Below are positions 27,422 through 35,849 of a stretch of DNA of 64,000 nt, piece after piece. Position numbers and translations under genes: made by a program. Position 1 is the first letter of the stretch, and each line of letters begins with the position of its first letter. Below the pieces are notes generated by a model that saw nothing but the letters and a program-made list of their open reading frames with translations, made no database searches and had not been told where the DNA came from. This DNA is from Pseudomonadota bacterium (GTDB lineage Bacteria; Myxococcota_A; UBA9042; GCA-2863065): NCBI GenBank assembly GCA_005776725.1, contig SXOO01000062.1, positions 358 to 64,357 of the forward strand, in the 5' to 3' direction.

Positions 27422-30418
27422 ATGAAAAGACCTCTCCTCTGGGCGGCTGTGCTCCTCTTCGCGTGTGAGTCCGGAGACACCGGCGGCGGCGCTTCGCTGA
27501 ATGCCGGCGACGCTCGTGCGAACGGCAAGACGGACACGCCGTCTGCGGGCGACGACAGCGGTACGCCGGGCTCCGGCAGCGACGGCAGCGACGGCAGCGA
27601 CGGCAGCGACGGCACCCCGAACCCCTGCGCCGAGGACCAGTGTCACATCGACGACGCCTGCTGGGACGCAGGCGACGCGCCCGAGGGCGACCCGTGCCGC
27701 GTCTGCGAGCCCGAGCGCGACGTCTTCACGTGGAGCGACACAGACTCCGCTTGTGATGACGGCGACGCGTGCACCCTGGGCGACGGCTGCACCCTCGGCG
27801 CCTGTATCGGCGCGCCCAAGGTCTGCGTCGACGGCGATCCGTGCACCAACAGCCAGTGCGAGAACGGCGAGTGCGTGCACCCAGGGCGGGCCGGCCCCTG
27901 TGACGACGGCGACGCGTGCACGATCAACGACCGCTGCATGAGCGCGAAGTGCTCCGGCGGGCTCCCGAAGTGCGACGACGGCAACAGCTGCACCACCGAC
28001 GCCTGCGCAGACGGCGCCTGCGATCACACGGTGCTCAACAGCGCCCCATGCGACGACGGCAACCCGTGCACCGAGTCCACCACCTGCGTGGCAGGAGCGT
28101 GCGTCGGCGGCACGCCGGCGCCCTGCGACGACGGCGATCTCTGCACGGCGGACGCCTGCGTGCTGACGGGACCGCTCGGCGCCGGTGGCTGCGTGCACAC
28201 CTCCGTCGCGGCGTACTGCGAAGACTCGAACCCCTGCACCGACGAGGCCTGTGACGCCGCCAAGGGCTGCGTCTACCCGTTCAACTCCATCCCGTGCAAC
28301 GACGACGACGAGTGCACGCTCGCTGACAAGTGCACCACTGGCGCGTGCCGCGGCGAAGACGTCCTCCTCTCCGACAACAACCCGTGCACCAACGACTACT
28401 GCGACCCCGTCGACGGCGTCTACCACACGAACAACCAGTTCCCGTGCGAGGACGGCGACGCGTGCACGGTGGGCGACCTGTGCGACGCCGGGCAGTGTAC
28501 GCCGGGGACGGGCGAGCTCCCTTGCGACGACGGCGAGCCTTGCACAGACGACGCGTGCGAAAAGACGGCGGGTTGCTTCACCACACCGAACACCGCCACC
28601 TGCGACGATGGGTCGGTCTGCACCGAGGACGACGTCTGCGCCAACGGTGAGTGCGACGGCCACGCGATCACGTGCGACGACAGCAACGCCTGCACCACCG
28701 ACAGCTGCGACAAGGTGGAGGGATGCCGCTTCACGCTGATCGTCTCGAACGCCTGCCGCCCCGACATCACGATCACGTACCCGCCCCGCGGCGCGACCAT
28801 CCAGGGGTCTTCGAAGTCAATCACCGTGACGGGAATTGTCACGAGCGGCGCCGCCCCGATGGACACCTTCACGATCAACGGGGCGCCGGTGACGCTGGCC
28901 CCCGACGGGAGCTTCGCGCACCCCGTGGCCACCGAGGTGGGGGGCAACACGCTGGTGATCGACGCCGTGGACGAGCTGGGGGCGGTGCGCCACCGGGTCC
29001 AGGCGTTCCATTGGTCAAGCGTCTATGCGCTGCCCGACAACCTCGAGCAGAAGACGGGCATGGCGGAGCAGGGCCTGGCGATCTGGCTGTCTGGCTCCGC
29101 GCTCGACAAGCTAACCCAGGTGTTCCAGAGCATCGTGGCCGGCCTCACGATCGGGGACTCCATCCAGAACCCGGTGCTTCAGCAGGCGGGCTACAAGATC
29201 CACGTGAACAACCTCACCCATGGCACACCGCAGGTGGCCATGAAGCCCGTGAACGGAGGCATCGAGCTCACCGTCACCGTGAAGAACATCAAGGCCGACA
29301 TCAACGCCGACGGTCAGAGCTTCCTCACCCCTGACTTCGACGGGACCATGACGGTGGCCACGCTCACTGCGACCGCCCAGGTGCAGCTGTCGGTGGACCC
29401 GAGCACGCACACTCTGGTGGCCACGGTCGGCACCGTGAACGTGGCGATGAGCAACCCTTCGATCTCGATCAGCGGCATCATCGGCCTGCTCATCTCCCCG
29501 CTCATCAACCTGCTCGTGCCGATCTTCAAGGGAGACATCGAGAGCACCTTCAGCAGCACGCTCAAGGACGTCATCGGGCCGCTCGTGGCAGACGCGCTGA
29601 ACGGCCTCGCGCTCTCGTTCGACTTCGACCTGCCCTCCTTCGACCCAACGGCCGACCCGGTGGCCGTCCAGGTGGTCACCGACTTCCAGGCGGTCGACTT
29701 CACGCCCGCCGGCGGCGCCCTGATCCTGCGCGGTGGCGCCTACACGAGCCCGGTGGTCACTCCCTACACGAACCTCGGGTCGGTCATTCGAGGCAACTGC
29801 GGCGCACCGGGCTTCAAGCTCACGCCGCCGAAGGCCGCGCCTCTGGAGCTGCTCCTCTCGGACGACCTCATCAACGAGATCCTGTACTCCGCATGGCGGG
29901 GCGGCTTCCTGGAGTTCGATGTGCCGCCGGAGCTGCTCGCCGGCGTCGACGTCTCCCAATTCGGGATCGGCAAGCTCGACGTCAGCGTCTCGGCGATGTT
30001 GGCGCCGGTGGTCAGCGACTGCGCCACGGGGACCTCGACCGTCCACATCGGCGACCTCAAGATCAACGCCGCGCTCGACCTCTTCGGGCAGCAGATGGAC
30101 GTGGTGATGCACGTCAGCCTCACCACGGAGATCGTGTTCTCGGCGGCCGATGGCGAGCTGTCGTTCGGCCTGGCCGCGATCGAGTCGATCGACAGCGACA
30201 TCGCCGTGCTCCAGGAGCACCTCGTGGCGTCGGAGGGCGCCGTGGCCGATCTCGTGAACCAGAACCTGATCCCCGCGCTCATCGGGGGACTCGGCGGCGG
30301 CGCCCTCGGCTCGTTCCCGCTCCCCGAGCTGGACGTGAGCGGCGTCAAGATCGCCATCGAACCTACGTCCGTGAGCCGCGGCCCGGGCCAGACCGTCGTC
30401 TCGGGGAACCTCAAGTGA
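27422..30418 (+). CDS. Cys-rich-repeat lipoprotein with Ig-like domain and C-terminal BPI/LBP-like (TULIP) two-barrel region, 998 aa
   Basis: Lipobox VLLFAC, then a D/G/S linker and ~370 aa of CDDG[DN]xCTxDxC modules. Ig-like segment: ITITYPPRGATIQGSSKSITVTG...INGAPVTLAPDGSF...GGNTLVIDAVDELG. The last ~470 aa align by eye to both halves of BPI. N half: GLAIWLSGSALDKL.., YKIHVNNLTHGTPQVAMKPVNGGIELTVTVKNIKADI, ISISGIIGLLISPLINLLVPIFKGDIESTFSSTLKDVIGPLV. C half: LELLLSDDLINEILYSAWRGGFLEFDV.., ..LIPALIGGLGGGALGSFPLPEL. Confidence 0.75.
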   Translation: MKRPLLWAAVLLFACESGDTGGGASLNAGDARANGKTDTPSAGDDSGTPGSGSDGSDGSDGSDGTPNPCAEDQCHIDDACWDAGDAPEGDPCRVCEPERDVFTWSDTDSACDDGDACTLGDGCTLGACIGAPKVCVDGDPCTNSQCENGECVHPGRAGPCDDGDACTINDRCMSAKCSGGLPKCDDGNSCTTDACADGACDHTVLNSAPCDDGNPCTESTTCVAGACVGGTPAPCDDGDLCTADACVLTGPLGAGGCVHTSVAAYCEDSNPCTDEACDAAKGCVYPFNSIPCNDDDECTLADKCTTGACRGEDVLLSDNNPCTNDYCDPVDGVYHTNNQFPCEDGDACTVGDLCDAGQCTPGTGELPCDDGEPCTDDACEKTAGCFTTPNTATCDDGSVCTEDDVCANGECDGHAITCDDSNACTTDSCDKVEGCRFTLIVSNACRPDITITYPPRGATIQGSSKSITVTGIVTSGAAPMDTFTINGAPVTLAPDGSFAHPVATEVGGNTLVIDAVDELGAVRHRVQAFHWSSVYALPDNLEQKTGMAEQGLAIWLSGSALDKLTQVFQSIVAGLTIGDSIQNPVLQQAGYKIHVNNLTHGTPQVAMKPVNGGIELTVTVKNIKADINADGQSFLTPDFDGTMTVATLTATAQVQLSVDPSTHTLVATVGTVNVAMSNPSISISGIIGLLISPLINLLVPIFKGDIESTFSSTLKDVIGPLVADALNGLALSFDFDLPSFDPTADPVAVQVVTDFQAVDFTPAGGALILRGGAYTSPVVTPYTNLGSVIRGNCGAPGFKLTPPKAAPLELLLSDDLINEILYSAWRGGFLEFDVPPELLAGVDVSQFGIGKLDVSVSAMLAPVVSDCATGTSTVHIGDLKINAALDLFGQQMDVVMHVSLTTEIVFSAADGELSFGLAAIESIDSDIAVLQEHLVASEGAVADLVNQNLIPALIGGLGGGALGSFPLPELDVSGVKIAIEPTSVSRGPGQTVVSGNLK
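27575..27610 (+). repeat. In-frame 9-bp microsatellite (GGCAGCGAC) x4 encoding (GSD)n linker
   Basis: Four perfect tandem copies read directly from the sequence, inside the post-lipobox linker of the 27422 gene. Confidence 0.9.
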
Positions 30419-35084: not shown

Positions 35085-35849
35085 GTGCTCGGCGAGTTCT
35101 TGCTTCGGTCCGTCATCAGCGGCGCCATCGCGACCACGCTCTACCTGGTCTTCGCGTGGTCATTCTCACGGAAGTACTCGCGCATGGTCTCGCGAGACGT
35201 GCTCCGCCACGACATCTTCTGGGGCGTCGCGTCCCTCGCGGTGGGCTCGCCCATCCTGCAGGTATTCGGGCTGCTCCATGAGCAACACGGGATCAGCATG
35301 ATGTACATGGGCTTCGCCGACTACGGTTGGATCTGGTGGGCGCTCTCGATCCCCATCTACGTGATGCTGTGGGACCTGGTCTTCTACGGCGGCCACCTCA
35401 TCCTCCACTGGCCGCTCGTCTATCGGAAGTCTCACTTCCGGCACCATATGTGCCGCCCGCCGGTGCCGTGGTCCGGGATCGCGATCGACCCCGTCGAGAC
35501 ACTGCTCTCCGGCATCCTCCCGTACGTCGTGCCGCTGTTCATCCTCCCGTTCCACATCTACACCGTCTATGCCATCAACATCCTGCTGATGGCCTGGGCC
35601 ACTCTGGTCCACTCCTCGGCCAACTGGGTCGGCACCTCGGTGATGCTCGGGACGAAGGACCACAATCTGCACCACGCGTTCGGCCTCAAGAACCACAACT
35701 TCGGCGCGGTCTTCACGTTCTGGGACCGGATGTTCGGCACACTCAACCGGAAGGACACGGCGCCCTGGTGGGGCAAGGCCACGTGGGGCAAGTCCGCGGG
35801 AGCCATCCACGAGGCCGCCCGCCACGGCGACGCCGCCCCGGGCCTGTAG
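35085..35849 (+). CDS. Fatty acid hydroxylase / sterol desaturase family membrane protein
   Basis: Three His boxes in the expected order: HLILH, HFRHH and HNLHH, plus FTFWDRMFGT. It has several TM helices. The GTG at 35085 is preceded by AGGAGG (35075..35080); the track start at 35043 is an alternative. Confidence 0.8.
   Translation: MLGEFLLRSVISGAIATTLYLVFAWSFSRKYSRMVSRDVLRHDIFWGVASLAVGSPILQVFGLLHEQHGISMMYMGFADYGWIWWALSIPIYVMLWDLVFYGGHLILHWPLVYRKSHFRHHMCRPPVPWSGIAIDPVETLLSGILPYVVPLFILPFHIYTVYAINILLMAWATLVHSSANWVGTSVMLGTKDHNLHHAFGLKNHNFGAVFTFWDRMFGTLNRKDTAPWWGKATWGKSAGAIHEAARHGDAAPGL

What the first reader, a model, noticed from the sequence alone, without database searches (positions are those of the whole stretch)
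27422..35849. Translationally coupled four-lipoprotein operon with lipid/terpenoid-binding folds, followed by a sterol-desaturase-family gene
- Four consecutive plus-strand genes each begin with a lipobox: LLFAC, LLGC, SFAC, SLGC.
- They are joined by GTGA (30415), an 86-bp gap, and ATGA (33614).
- The products are a Cys-rich array plus Ig-like plus BPI/LBP-like two-barrel region; a second Cys-rich array with an unknown C-terminal domain; an exported Memo-family protein; and a protein with QxxDGSF prenyltransferase/terpene-cyclase-like repeats.
- A fatty-acid-hydroxylase/sterol-desaturase-family membrane protein follows within ~90 bp.
- I know of no described system with this combination.
- The shared theme of hydrophobic-ligand-binding folds placed outside the cytoplasm suggests an envelope lipid or isoprenoid/sterol handling or transfer module.
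Basis: inference. Interest (0 to 1): 0.8.

Follow-up and report, generated by a model that had tools for sequence, protein, structure and literature searches.

The report
Stalked BPI-like lipoproteins plus exported Memo–toroid pair
A Myxococcota operon encodes four membrane-tethered proteins: a bacterial look-alike of the human lipid-binding protein BPI on a disulfide-rich stalk, a second stalked protein, and a conserved exported pair (Memo-family protein plus helical-ring protein) whose function is unknown, while the neighbouring "sterol desaturase" gene is not a conserved partner.

Summary
Four co-directional genes carry signal peptides with lipobox cysteines. They are joined by GTGA and ATGA overlaps and an 86-bp gap, and the domain calls hold.

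An AlphaFold model of the G1 C-terminus (pLDDT 85) matches BPI, LBP and CETP over about 500 columns (Foldseek E 1e-22 to 1e-18). G4 models as a 12-helix (α/α)6 toroid. G3 is a Memo protein with its metal-site residues intact.

- The operon is two separable cassettes. The four-gene block recurs in two other MAGs, within different flanking genes.
- G5 (FA_hydroxylase) occurs only in this genome.
- The evolutionary core is Memo plus toroid, adjacent in 18 of 20 readable loci, and both are always lipoproteins.
- The toroid has no terpene-cyclase or prenyltransferase motifs. It has a conserved polar pocket, and its weak profile hits are to glycan-active families.
- Its wider family is often fused to AMMECR1, the known genomic partner of Memo.

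I read the Memo–toroid pair as an exported offshoot of the uncharacterised Memo–AMMECR1 association that lacks a radical-SAM gene. In this clade it is coupled to a stalked BPI-like lipid binder. A sterol or isoprenoid role is unsupported.

The parts
27422..30418 (+). G1, a 998-aa stalked lipoprotein. Layout: signal peptide and lipobox (Cys15); acidic tether (aa 16-68); about 14 four-Cys Dicty_CTDC-type repeats (aa 69-445, nt 27626-28756); Ig-like sandwich (aa 446-532, nt 28757-29017); two-barrel BPI/LBP/CETP-like TULIP module (aa ~548-998, nt 29063-30415).
   Evidence: PF01273 31.2 bits against a cutoff of 28.8. (AF2 pLDDT 84.7, pTM 0.83). (Foldseek: BPI 1ewf 1.7e-22, LBP 9.5e-21, CETP 2.7e-18). 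(Cys positions).
30415..32394 (+). G2, a 659-aa stalked lipoprotein. Layout: lipobox LLGC (Cys14); acidic ADG-rich tether; about 13 Cys-rich repeats (aa 73-409, nt 30631-31641); uncharacterised ~250-aa head (nt 31642-32391) with DxDxDG-like motifs.
   Evidence: no Pfam hit for the head; 5 homologue clusters; no profile similarity to the G1 TULIP.
30415..30418 (+). GTGA start/stop overlap between G1 and G2 (translational coupling). The equivalent ATGA overlap is conserved in L001 and L016.
32395..32480 (+). 86-bp spacer between cassette A (G1-G2) and cassette B (G3-G4). No terminator-like hairpin was found. The equivalent spacer in L001 is 133 bp.
32481..33617 (+). G3, a 378-aa lipoprotein. Layout: lipobox SFAC (Cys18); 77-aa acidic tether; Memo domain (aa 96-378, nt 32766-33614) retaining the HAG His, the PNH His and the TIC(A/G)E Cys of the MEMO1 metal site.
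   Evidence: PF01875, 5e-28. (TIGR04336, 126.9 bits). (profile against MEMO1 3bcz/7kq8, 2.4e-15).
33614..33617 (+). ATGA start/stop overlap between G3 and G4. It is conserved in L001 and L016.
33614..34996 (+). G4, a 460-aa lipoprotein. Layout: lipobox SLGC (Cys25); ~60-aa tether; 12-helix (α/α)6 toroid (aa 88-460, nt 33875-34993). The conserved polar set is D90, R136, R153, Q243, E292, E353, D357, R391, R433, D435, H439 and K446.
   Evidence: 4 close homologues in 5.8e9 proteins. (AF2 pLDDT 63, pTM 0.68, core 70-90). (Foldseek: GH76 3e-5, AGE 6e-5, single-domain SHC 1e-4). (744 relatives)..
35085..35849 (+). G5, a 254-aa membrane FA_hydroxylase (sterol-desaturase superfamily) protein with about 4 hydrophobic segments and His boxes HLILH, HFRHH and HNLHH. 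It is adjacent, but it is not a conserved member of the block.
   Evidence: Absent from L001, L016 and all cassette-B loci.

Best explanation
Shown:
- This is a self-contained four-gene lipoprotein operon built from two translationally coupled cassettes.
- All four products are very acidic. Each hangs from its lipidated Cys on a 50-80-residue acidic tether.

Cassette A (G1+G2) encodes proteins with the layout anchor, tether, stalk, head. The stalk is about 14 disulfide-rich 24-residue repeats.
- The G1 head is an Ig-like domain followed by a complete two-barrel BPI/LBP/CETP-type tubular lipid-binding module.
- The G2 head has an unknown fold.

Cassette B (G3+G4) is the evolutionary core.
- G3 is a Memo-family protein with an intact metal site.
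- G4 is an (α/α)6 toroid whose conserved charged residues sit at the N-termini of alternate helices. That arrangement is typical of a catalytic pocket.
- The wider family of the toroid is frequently fused to AMMECR1, the established genomic partner of Memo.

Inferred:
- Cassette B is an extracytoplasmic derivative of the Memo–AMMECR1 association that works without a radical-SAM enzyme. It would be a two-protein unit acting on the polar (glycosyl- or phosphate-bearing) part of an envelope or surface amphiphile.
- In this clade it has been placed in one transcript with a stalked BPI-like carrier, which would bind the hydrophobic part of such a molecule at a distance from the membrane.
- G5 is a lineage-specific neighbour and not part of the system.
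For: Anatomy and junctions.

G1 fold:
- AF2 pLDDT 84.7.
- Foldseek gives BPI 1.7e-22, LBP 9.5e-21 and CETP 2.7e-18, against bacterial OrfX/P47 at about 4e-9.
- PF01273 scores above its gathering cutoff when the region is scanned alone.

G4 fold: 12 helices, pTM 0.68, with six-hairpin toroid hits.

G3: Memo with a conserved metal site.

The four-gene block is a unit. It has the same order and the same 4-nt overlaps in L001/L015 and L016, at 58-70% aa identity, between unrelated flanks (DnaX and Lhr there; HEAT protein and G5/AsnB here).

Cassette B is the core. A Memo gene is adjacent to the G4-like gene in 18 of 20 non-redundant loci with readable flanks. This includes one convergent arrangement at 24% identity and one tandem Memo duplication.

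Cassette A occurs alone in L019.

Lipobox Cys is conserved in both cassette-B families.

AMMECR1 link: 32 of 88 long relatives of G4 carry an N-terminal AMMECR1 domain. Many have signal peptides or lipoboxes.

Polar conserved pocket and absence of terpenoid motifs.
Against: - No experiment or ligand exists for any component.
- The G4 model has only moderate confidence, from a 4-sequence alignment.
- Fold matches do not discriminate between glycan-active and terpenoid toroids.
- The two cassettes occur apart more often than together, so a shared pathway is not required.
- G1-like proteins also occur with other partners (L009, L011).
- Two G4-family loci lack Memo and instead follow Ser/Thr kinases, which hints at a sensory role rather than an enzymatic one.
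- The window holds no AMMECR1 gene. Its only radical-SAM gene is a B12-binding type about 15 kb away.
- The G2 head is uncharacterised.
- The strongly acidic barrels (pI about 4.2) are unlike the cationic, LPS-binding BPI N-domain.
Confidence: 0.4

Rival explanations
1. One reading: an envelope isoprenoid or sterol handling and transfer module. G4 would be a terpenoid-binding, prenyltransferase- or cyclase-like protein, and the downstream sterol-desaturase-family enzyme would be part of the system.
For: - G1 is a genuine CETP/BPI-like lipid-binding fold.
- G4 is an α/α toroid. Single-domain squalene-hopene cyclases (8pak, 8paj) are among its Foldseek hits at 1e-4, with the highest identity in the list at 16%.
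- One distant AMMECR1-fused relative gives sub-threshold SQHop_cyclase hits.
- G5 is a real FA_hydroxylase with His boxes, 88 bp downstream, with no terminator found between.
- From my own memory of its abstract, Burroughs et al. 2019 (JBC 294:10211) link the Memo clade to aliphatic isoprenoid modification.
- Close G4 relatives come from Nannocystaceae. From my own knowledge, that family contains sterol producers.
Against: - G5 is absent from both other four-gene loci and from all cassette-B loci.
- The G4 family has no DxDD or DDxxD motif and no Zn-ligand Cys.
- No member hits Prenyltrans or SQHop_cyclase even at E<=1. The weak hits go to GH88, Pec_lyase, GH127, AGE and GH76.
- The conserved residues are charged, not aromatic.
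- No squalene, oxidosqualene or polyprenyl gene is in the window.
Confidence: 0.1
2. The two cassettes are functionally independent and merely adjacent. Cassette A would be a pair of stalked cell-surface proteins for contact with other cells or prey, architecturally like the M. xanthus TraA stalk-plus-head receptor. Cassette B would be an unrelated periplasmic ligand-binding or sensory accessory pair.
For: - The cassettes occur apart: B alone in at least 15 loci, and A alone in L019.
- The 4-nt overlaps lie within each cassette and a gap lies between them.
- G1-like genes pair with other surface-type proteins, namely a PA14 protein in L011 and a 1412-aa protein in L009.
- Cassette B sits next to signalling genes: an ECF sigma factor in L013; Pkinase and a hybrid histidine kinase in L023; a HisKA gene in L004.
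- In L031 and L037 the toroid directly follows two Ser/Thr kinases, with no Memo.
Against: - The four-gene block keeps its order and spacing in two lineages at about 58% identity, within different chromosomal contexts.
- No terminator lies in the 86-bp spacer.
- All four proteins share the same unusual acidic-tether design.
- Signalling genes are abundant in Myxococcota, so their adjacency is weak evidence.
Confidence: 0.3
3. Cassette B is a glycan-active unit. G4 would be a six-hairpin hydrolase, lyase or AGE-type epimerase acting on exopolysaccharide, LPS sugar or peptidoglycan-derived substrate, with Memo as a redox or metal helper. No lipid would be involved.
For: - Most of the top 25 Foldseek hits are GH76 mannanases and AGE or cellobiose-2-epimerase family enzymes.
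- Weak Pfam votes go to GH88, Pec_lyase, GH127, AGE and C5-epimerase.
- Conserved polar residues, including Arg in α2 and His in α12, sit at the N-termini of alternate helices. From memory, this resembles the AGE-superfamily catalytic layout.
- L022 lies beside polysaccharide biosynthesis genes.
Against: - All sequence hits are below family thresholds.
- No GH catalytic pair was identified.
- There is no precedent for a Memo or AMMECR1 partner in glycan pathways.
- There is no consistent carbohydrate-gene neighbourhood across loci.
Confidence: 0.15

Closest known systems
Eukaryotic BPI / LBP / CETP / PLTP family (Pfam PF01273 and PF02886; TULIP superfamily)
   Same: - The G1 C-terminus models as the full pseudo-dimeric two-barrel boomerang. 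Each half is a short helix, a long twisted β-sheet and a long helix.
- It aligns to BPI, LBP and CETP over about 500 columns (E 1e-22 to 1e-18).
- It reaches the PF01273 gathering score.
   Different: - It is bacterial and lipid-anchored.
- It is mounted on an Ig domain and a ~380-aa disulfide-rich stalk.
- Its barrels are acidic (pI about 4.2), not cationic.
- Its conserved Cys pair lies in the second barrel, not the first.
- PF02886 is only a weak hit (14.6 bits).
- No ligand is known.
Known bacterial TULIPs: P47/OrfX of Clostridium, YceB/DUF1439, DUF4403, DUF2140, DUF2993 (Levine 2019, PMC6791001)
   Same: They are bacterial tubular lipid-binding folds, some of them lipoproteins of diderm envelopes. 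DUF4403 is also a full pseudo-dimer.
   Different: [quoted passage not shown]
- G1 hits the eukaryotic Pfam model directly.
- G1 is structurally far closer to BPI (1e-22) than to OrfX/P47 (about 4e-9).
- Those proteins have linkers of 25 aa or less, whereas G1 has a tether plus a long stalk.
Memo–AMMECR1–radical SAM association ('AmmeMemoRadiSam system', TIGR04335-04337; Burroughs et al. 2019, JBC 294:10211, cited from memory and via PMC7159879)
   Same: - G3 scores 126.9 bits on TIGR04336 (cutoff 26).
- G3 keeps the Memo metal-site residues.
- The toroid family of its partner G4 is fused to AMMECR1 in at least 32 relatives.
   Different: - No AMMECR1 or cognate radical-SAM gene is present here.
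- Both proteins are exported lipoproteins, whereas a radical-SAM partner needs the cytoplasm.
- The partner is a stand-alone (α/α)6 toroid.
- The function of the reference system is itself unknown.
Six-hairpin (α/α)6 toroids: GH76, GH88, AGE/cellobiose 2-epimerase, and class II terpene cyclases and prenyltransferase β subunits
   Same: A 12-helix toroid with Q-x-x-DG-x-F hairpins. Foldseek E-values are 3e-5 to 1e-3 against all of these.
   Different: - No family reaches its Pfam threshold.
- There are no DxDD or DDxxD motifs and no Zn triad.
- The catalytic residues of none of these families could be mapped.
Myxococcus xanthus TraA outer-membrane-exchange receptor (from own knowledge)
   Same: The design is a membrane anchor, a Cys-rich repeat stalk and a distal head domain, in a myxobacterial surface protein connected with lipid and lipoprotein exchange.
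   Different: - TraA has an N-terminal PA14-like head and a C-terminal MYXO-CTERM anchor.
- G1 and G2 have the reverse polarity: an N-terminal lipobox anchor and a C-terminal head.
- No TraB-like gene is present here.
- Homology of the repeats to TraA was not tested.

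Membership tests
BPI/LBP/CETP (TULIP, two-barrel) | Two pseudo-symmetric barrels, each a helix, a long antiparallel sheet and a long helix, joined head to head | tested here: met
   AF2 model m33a3eaf18c27 (pLDDT 84.7, pTM 0.83), with matching secondary-structure order. Foldseek: BPI 1.7e-22, LBP 9.5e-21, CETP 2.7e-18, about 500 aligned columns.
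BPI/LBP/CETP (TULIP, two-barrel) | Sequence match to PF01273 (N-domain) and PF02886 (C-domain) at gathering score | tested here: inconclusive
   PF01273 scores 27.9 bits in the whole protein and 31.2 bits in the isolated region (cutoff 28.8). PF02886 scores only 14.6 bits (cutoff 23). Only 3 of 7 homologues show weak PF01273 hits.
BPI/LBP/CETP (TULIP, two-barrel) | Hydrophobic tubular pockets that bind lipid | not testable with these tools
The barrels have GRAVY +0.44 and +0.48, which is only suggestive.
Memo (PF01875) / AmmeMemoRadiSam protein B (TIGR04336) | Profile match above the curated cutoffs, and the conserved His/His/Cys metal site | tested here: met
   PF01875 scores 98.5 bits (cutoff 27). 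TIGR04336 scores 126.9 bits (cutoff 26). The HAG His, PNH His and TIC(A/G)E Cys align to MEMO1.
AmmeMemoRadiSam system (three-gene system) | Co-occurrence with AMMECR1 (protein A) and its radical-SAM partner | tested here: not met
   No AMMECR1 match in the six-frame translation of the 64 kb. The only radical-SAM gene (50500-51927) is a B12-binding type about 15 kb away. None was seen in the cassette-B loci.
AmmeMemoRadiSam system (three-gene system) | Cytoplasmic location, as required by a radical-SAM partner | tested here: not met
   G3 and its orthologues carry signal peptides with a lipobox Cys.
Terpene cyclase / prenyltransferase α/α toroids (PF00432, PF13243, PF13249) | α/α toroid fold with QW-type hairpins | tested here: met
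   A 12-helix model. Foldseek hits include SHC 8pak and 8paj at 1e-4. There are two Q-x-x-DGSF hairpins. This is a fold-level feature shared with glycan-active families.
Terpene cyclase / prenyltransferase α/α toroids (PF00432, PF13243, PF13249) | Catalytic motifs (DxDD, DDxxD, or the Zn-binding Asp/Cys/His triad) and a family profile match | tested here: not met
   No conserved DxDD or DDxxD. The only conserved Cys is the lipobox Cys. No Pfam hit for G4 at E<=10. None of the 18 family members hits these families at E<=1.
Fatty-acid hydroxylase / sterol desaturase superfamily (PF04116), G5 | Profile match, three His boxes, and a multi-pass membrane protein | tested here: met
   85.2 bits (cutoff 31). 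His boxes HLILH, HFRHH and HNLHH. About 4 hydrophobic segments. The subfamily (sterol-specific or otherwise) was not resolved, and there was no NCBIfam hit.
Membership of G5 in the operon | Conserved linkage with G1-G4 in related genomes | tested here: not met
   Absent after G4 in L001/L015 and L016, where an Lhr helicase gene follows on the opposite strand. Absent from all cassette-B loci.
Bacterial lipoproteins | Signal peptide ending in a lipobox with an invariant Cys | tested here: met
   Sequence patterns in G1-G4. The Cys is conserved in at least 90% of the G4 family and in Memo orthologues. No LipoP or SignalP run was available. The lipoboxes of G3 (SFAC) and G4 (SLGC) are slightly non-canonical. 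Acylation is untested.

The most novel reading that the evidence does not exclude
G3-G4, together with the signal-peptide-bearing AMMECR1–toroid fusions, would define a previously undescribed extracytoplasmic branch of the Memo/AMMECR1 world. It would be a radical-SAM-independent enzyme pair acting on an envelope amphiphile. In this clade that substrate would be delivered by a bacterial BPI orthologue whose sequence-level similarity to eukaryotic BPI/LBP/CETP bears on the bacterial origin of that family. If so, this would give the first tractable biochemical context for the enigmatic Memo and AMMECR1 proteins.
Probability: 0.15. Interest if true: 0.8.

Novelty: new variant of a known kind. Interest (0 to 1): 0.55.

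Why it matters
1. Memo (human MEMO1, implicated in cancer-cell motility) and AMMECR1 (a human disease gene) have no agreed molecular function. A compact and strongly conserved exported Memo+toroid pair, whose toroid is elsewhere fused to AMMECR1, adds a third linked component. It also predicts an extracytoplasmic, oxygen-exposed setting, which narrows the search for a substrate.

2. Bacterial TULIP proteins known so far are too distant from the eukaryotic ones to settle a common origin (Levine 2019, PMC6791001). G1 and its roughly 15 relatives are bacterial proteins that hit the eukaryotic BPI model directly and reproduce the whole two-barrel architecture. That bears on where BPI, LBP and CETP came from.

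3. The design of anchor, acidic tether, disulfide stalk and head suggests a way for myxobacteria to hold a lipid-binding module far from their own membrane.

Tried and rejected
- PDB sequence searches with single sequences of G1, G3, G4 and G5 gave nothing. Only a 4-sequence Memo profile reached MEMO1.
- NCBIfam named only G3.
- A Pfam scan at E<=10 of the G2 head and of G4 gave nothing.
- A profile-profile comparison of the G2 head with the G1 TULIP region matched only the Cys-rich repeats. I therefore rejected the idea that the G2 head is a single TULIP barrel.
- Sigma-70 promoter and terminator scans were uninformative in this 70% GC DNA.
- Rfam found no RNA family in the window.
- The broad 18-sequence alignment was too divergent for the genome scan. 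The narrower scan found only 4 MAG loci.
- Burroughs et al. 2019 could not be read: the DOI and PMC id are not held.
- Literature searches for AMMECR1 with isoprenoid, lipid or toroid terms found nothing relevant.
- I rejected a cationic, BPI-like bactericidal mechanism because the barrels have pI about 4.2.
- I rejected LanC-like and thioester (α2-macroglobulin TED) readings of G4 because it has no conserved Cys or CxEQ motif.
- I rejected a conserved Tat signal in G4. Its RR is not conserved in homologues.

Full report
**1. What is in the sequence**

The window has about 70% GC. Third-position GC analysis and ORF listing give five co-directional plus-strand genes:
- G1 27422-30418
- G2 30415-32394
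- G3 32481-33617
- G4 33614-34996
- G5 35085-35849

The GTGA overlap at 30415, the 86-bp gap and the ATGA overlap at 33614 are read directly from the sequence. G5 begins at a GTG 7 nt after an AGGAGG, 88 bp after G4. No terminator-like hairpin lies between any of the genes, although that scan has little power in this DNA.

Each of G1-G4 starts with a basic n-region, a hydrophobic core and a Cys (LFAC, LLGC, SFAC, SLGC). After the Cys, all four carry a 50-80-residue acidic, low-complexity tether. All domains have pI 4.0-5.8.

**2. Identity of the parts**

G1
- About 14 four-Cys Dicty_CTDC-type repeats span aa 69-445.
- A Glucodextran_B Ig-like domain follows (31.1 bits against a cutoff of 27).
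- Next comes a region that hits PF01273 (LBP_BPI_CETP). It scores 27.9 bits in the whole protein and 31.2 bits when scanned alone, against a cutoff of 28.8. There is also a weak PF02886 hit.
- An AlphaFold2 model of aa 440-998, built on 14 homologues, has pLDDT 84.7 and pTM 0.83. It shows a β-sandwich followed by two units, each a helix, a long sheet and a long helix.
- Foldseek ranks BPI (1.7e-22), LBP (9.5e-21) and CETP (2.7e-18) far ahead of the bacterial OrfX/P47 TULIPs, which score about 4e-9.

G2
- It has about 13 of the same repeats and a ~250-aa head.
- The head has no Pfam match even at E<=10 and only five homologue clusters.
- It shows no profile similarity to the G1 TULIP region.
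- It carries DxDxDG-like motifs. Its fold remains unknown.

G3
- It matches Memo (PF01875, 5e-28) and TIGR04336 (126.9 bits against a cutoff of 26).
- A four-sequence profile aligns end to end with human MEMO1 (2.4e-15).
- The HAG His, the PNH His and the TIC(A/G)E Cys are conserved.

G4
- It has no Pfam, NCBIfam or PDB sequence match.
- Its model comes from a 4-sequence alignment. It has pLDDT 63 and pTM 0.68, with the core at 70-90, and shows 12 helices with small DG hairpins.
- Foldseek finds only (α/α)6 toroids: GH76 at 3e-5, AGE at 6e-5, single-domain squalene-hopene cyclase at 1e-4, and many cellobiose or glucose 2-epimerases.
- The fold call is right, but it is not specific to terpenoid enzymes.

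G5
- It is a bona fide FA_hydroxylase superfamily membrane protein (85.2 bits) with three His boxes.

**3. Conservation and modularity**

G4 is rare. It has four clusters among 5.8 billion proteins by word-seeded search. An exhaustive profile search found 14 clusters at E<=1e-30 and 744 at E<=1e-3.

The four-gene block G1-G2-G3-G4 recurs in two MAGs, L001/L015 and L016. These two share 80-83% nucleotide identity with each other.
- They share 58-70% aa identity with the window.
- Both keep the 4-nt overlaps at G1/G2 and at G3/G4, and a 133-bp spacer.
- Their flanks are DnaX and an Lhr helicase gene on the opposite strand. The window's flanks are a HEAT-repeat gene upstream and G5 and AsnB downstream.
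- The block is therefore a self-contained unit, and G5 is not part of it.

The unit that is conserved much more widely is Memo plus toroid.
- Pooling all loci fetched, an HMM scan shows a Memo gene adjacent to the G4-like gene in 18 of 20 non-redundant loci with readable flanks.
- In 17 loci the Memo gene lies directly upstream on the same strand.
- One is convergent, at only 24% identity to G4 (L022).
- L023, one of the 17, carries two tandem Memo genes.
- The two exceptions, L031 and L037, have two Ser/Thr kinase genes directly upstream instead.

Cassette A also occurs on its own. A G1-like Ig+BPI gene followed by a G2-head-like gene is found in L019, from the same metagenome as a cassette-B-only contig. 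G1-like genes occur with other partners in L009 and L011.

All 18 aligned G4-family proteins carry the lipobox Cys, which is at least 90% conserved. So do the Memo partners in L001, L004, L013, L016 and L018.

Source names place the family in Myxococcota, including Nannocystaceae.

**4. The AMMECR1 link**

Many distant relatives of G4 are proteins of about 600 aa. Pfam finds an N-terminal AMMECR1 domain in P0043, P0045 and P0073. A locally built HMM finds it in 32 of the 88 relatives of 500 aa or more, and in none of the 62 shorter ones.

Many of these fusions start with a signal peptide, a TM helix or a lipobox.

One fusion lies between a flavodoxin gene and a CutA1–DsbD/CcdA–thioredoxin set.

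AMMECR1 is the recognised genomic partner of Memo. The evidence for that is the TIGR04335-04337 'AmmeMemoRadiSam' models, and the 'Memo-Ammecr1 systems' of Burroughs et al. 2019 as cited in PMC7159879.

The window contains no AMMECR1. Its only radical-SAM gene is a B12-binding type about 15 kb away.

Across both the stand-alone and the AMMECR1-fused toroids, the motifs around R136, E292, E353 and R433-x-D435-x3-H439 are shared.

**5. Mechanism**

Shown:
- There are two translationally coupled lipoprotein pairs.
- G1 has a complete BPI-type lipid-binding fold at the end of a tether, a stalk and an Ig domain.
- G3 is a Memo protein with an intact metal site.
- G4 is a toroid with conserved charged residues at the N-termini of alternate helices.

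Inferred:
- Cassette B is an extracytoplasmic derivative of the Memo–AMMECR1 association that works without a radical-SAM enzyme. It would act on the polar part of an envelope or surface amphiphile.
- In this clade it is co-expressed with a stalked BPI-like module that could hold the hydrophobic part.
- I put this reading at about 0.4.

The main rival is that the two cassettes are independent. Under that reading, cassette A would be a contact or recognition device and cassette B an enzymatic or sensory pair (0.3). A purely glycan-directed cassette B gets 0.15.

The sterol or isoprenoid reading gets about 0.1, for four reasons:
- G5 is not conserved.
- G4 has no DxDD or DDxxD motif and no Zn triad.
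- No family member hits prenyltransferase or cyclase profiles even at E<=1, while GH88, Pec_lyase, GH127, AGE and GH76 get the weak votes.
- No isoprenoid gene is nearby.

A BPI-style cationic bactericidal action is unlikely, because the barrels have pI about 4.2.

**6. Comparison with what is known, and novelty**

Levine 2019 (PMC6791001) lists the bacterial TULIPs: P47/OrfX, YceB, DUF4403, DUF2140 and DUF2993. [quoted passage not shown]
- G1 hits the eukaryotic model directly.
- G1 reproduces the whole pseudo-dimer.
- G1 adds a stalk that none of those proteins has.

The Memo–AMMECR1–radical SAM linkage is known but has no assigned function. I did not find an exported, lipoprotein, toroid-partnered version in the searchable literature. 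I could not read Burroughs et al. 2019, which may already cover it.

I therefore rate this as a new variant of known kinds, not as categorically new. Interest is 0.55. The anatomy is solid and touches two open questions, the function of Memo and AMMECR1 and the origin of the BPI family. However, the carriers are uncultured MAGs and no substrate can yet be named.

Noticed in passing
L021 8001-9800; L024 6019-7815; proteins P0043-P0167: There is a large family of ~600-aa proteins that fuse an N-terminal AMMECR1 domain to a G4-like (α/α)6 toroid. Many have signal peptides, TM anchors or lipoboxes, and one is from a Woesearchaeota archaeon. In L024 the fusion sits between a flavodoxin gene and a CutA1–DsbD/CcdA–thioredoxin set, which suggests an extracytoplasmic thiol-redox context.
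   Followed up: partly
L031 136-5266; L037 145-5254: These are the two G4-family loci that lack an adjacent Memo gene. In both, two Ser/Thr protein kinase genes (the second with a zinc ribbon) end 27-36 bp before the toroid gene. This is a possible sensory coupling.
   Followed up: partly
L023 7897-11287: Two tandem Memo genes (327 and 326 aa) precede the G4-like gene. The cassette is flanked by a Pkinase+TPR gene and a PAS/HisKA/response-regulator hybrid kinase. In L013 an ECF sigma factor follows the cassette.
   Followed up: no
L019 4645-8717: A G1-like (Ig+BPI) gene and a G2-head-like gene lie together without Memo or the toroid. They come from the same metagenome (JGI 3300034642) as the cassette-B-only contig L005. 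The G2-like gene appears to be fragmented in the gene calls.
   Followed up: partly
L011 10001-13267: A G1-like BPI protein that lacks the Cys-rich stalk is followed by a PA14-domain protein. PA14 is the head domain of the M. xanthus TraA receptor (from own knowledge).
   Followed up: no
window 5001-16439 (-): A single 3,812-aa ORF made almost entirely of TPR repeats.
   Followed up: no
window 19237-22395 (+) and 57534-59378 (+): Further proteins carry Dicty_CTDC-type Cys-rich repeats. The first also has two Laminin_G_3 domains and a Laminin_G_2 domain. The genome evidently uses this repeat in several secreted proteins.
   Followed up: no
window 41959-43514 (+): smpB is immediately followed by an MlaD/MCE-family gene, which is lipid-transport related, about 7 kb from the operon. 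Rfam finds no tmRNA or any other RNA family in the 64 kb.
   Followed up: no
window 1-1517 (-); L011 20688-22028; L012 12163-13504: A DUF2330 gene is present in the window. One is also present about 8 kb from the G1-like gene in L011 and L012. This may be coincidence.
   Followed up: no
window 45445-56761: A cluster holds two AMP-binding (acyl-activating) enzymes, a B12-binding radical SAM protein (50500-51927), a DUF192 protein, and a fused FAD-monooxygenase and Old-Yellow-Enzyme protein (52902-55520). It may be a small-molecule pathway unrelated to the finding.
   Followed up: no
window 27422; L006 3818: The public gene call for G1 is 995 aa, which would start 9 nt downstream of the ATG at 27422, on a CCT codon. 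This looks like an inconsistency in the stored call. The ATG at 27422 has a GGAG 8 nt upstream.
   Followed up: no
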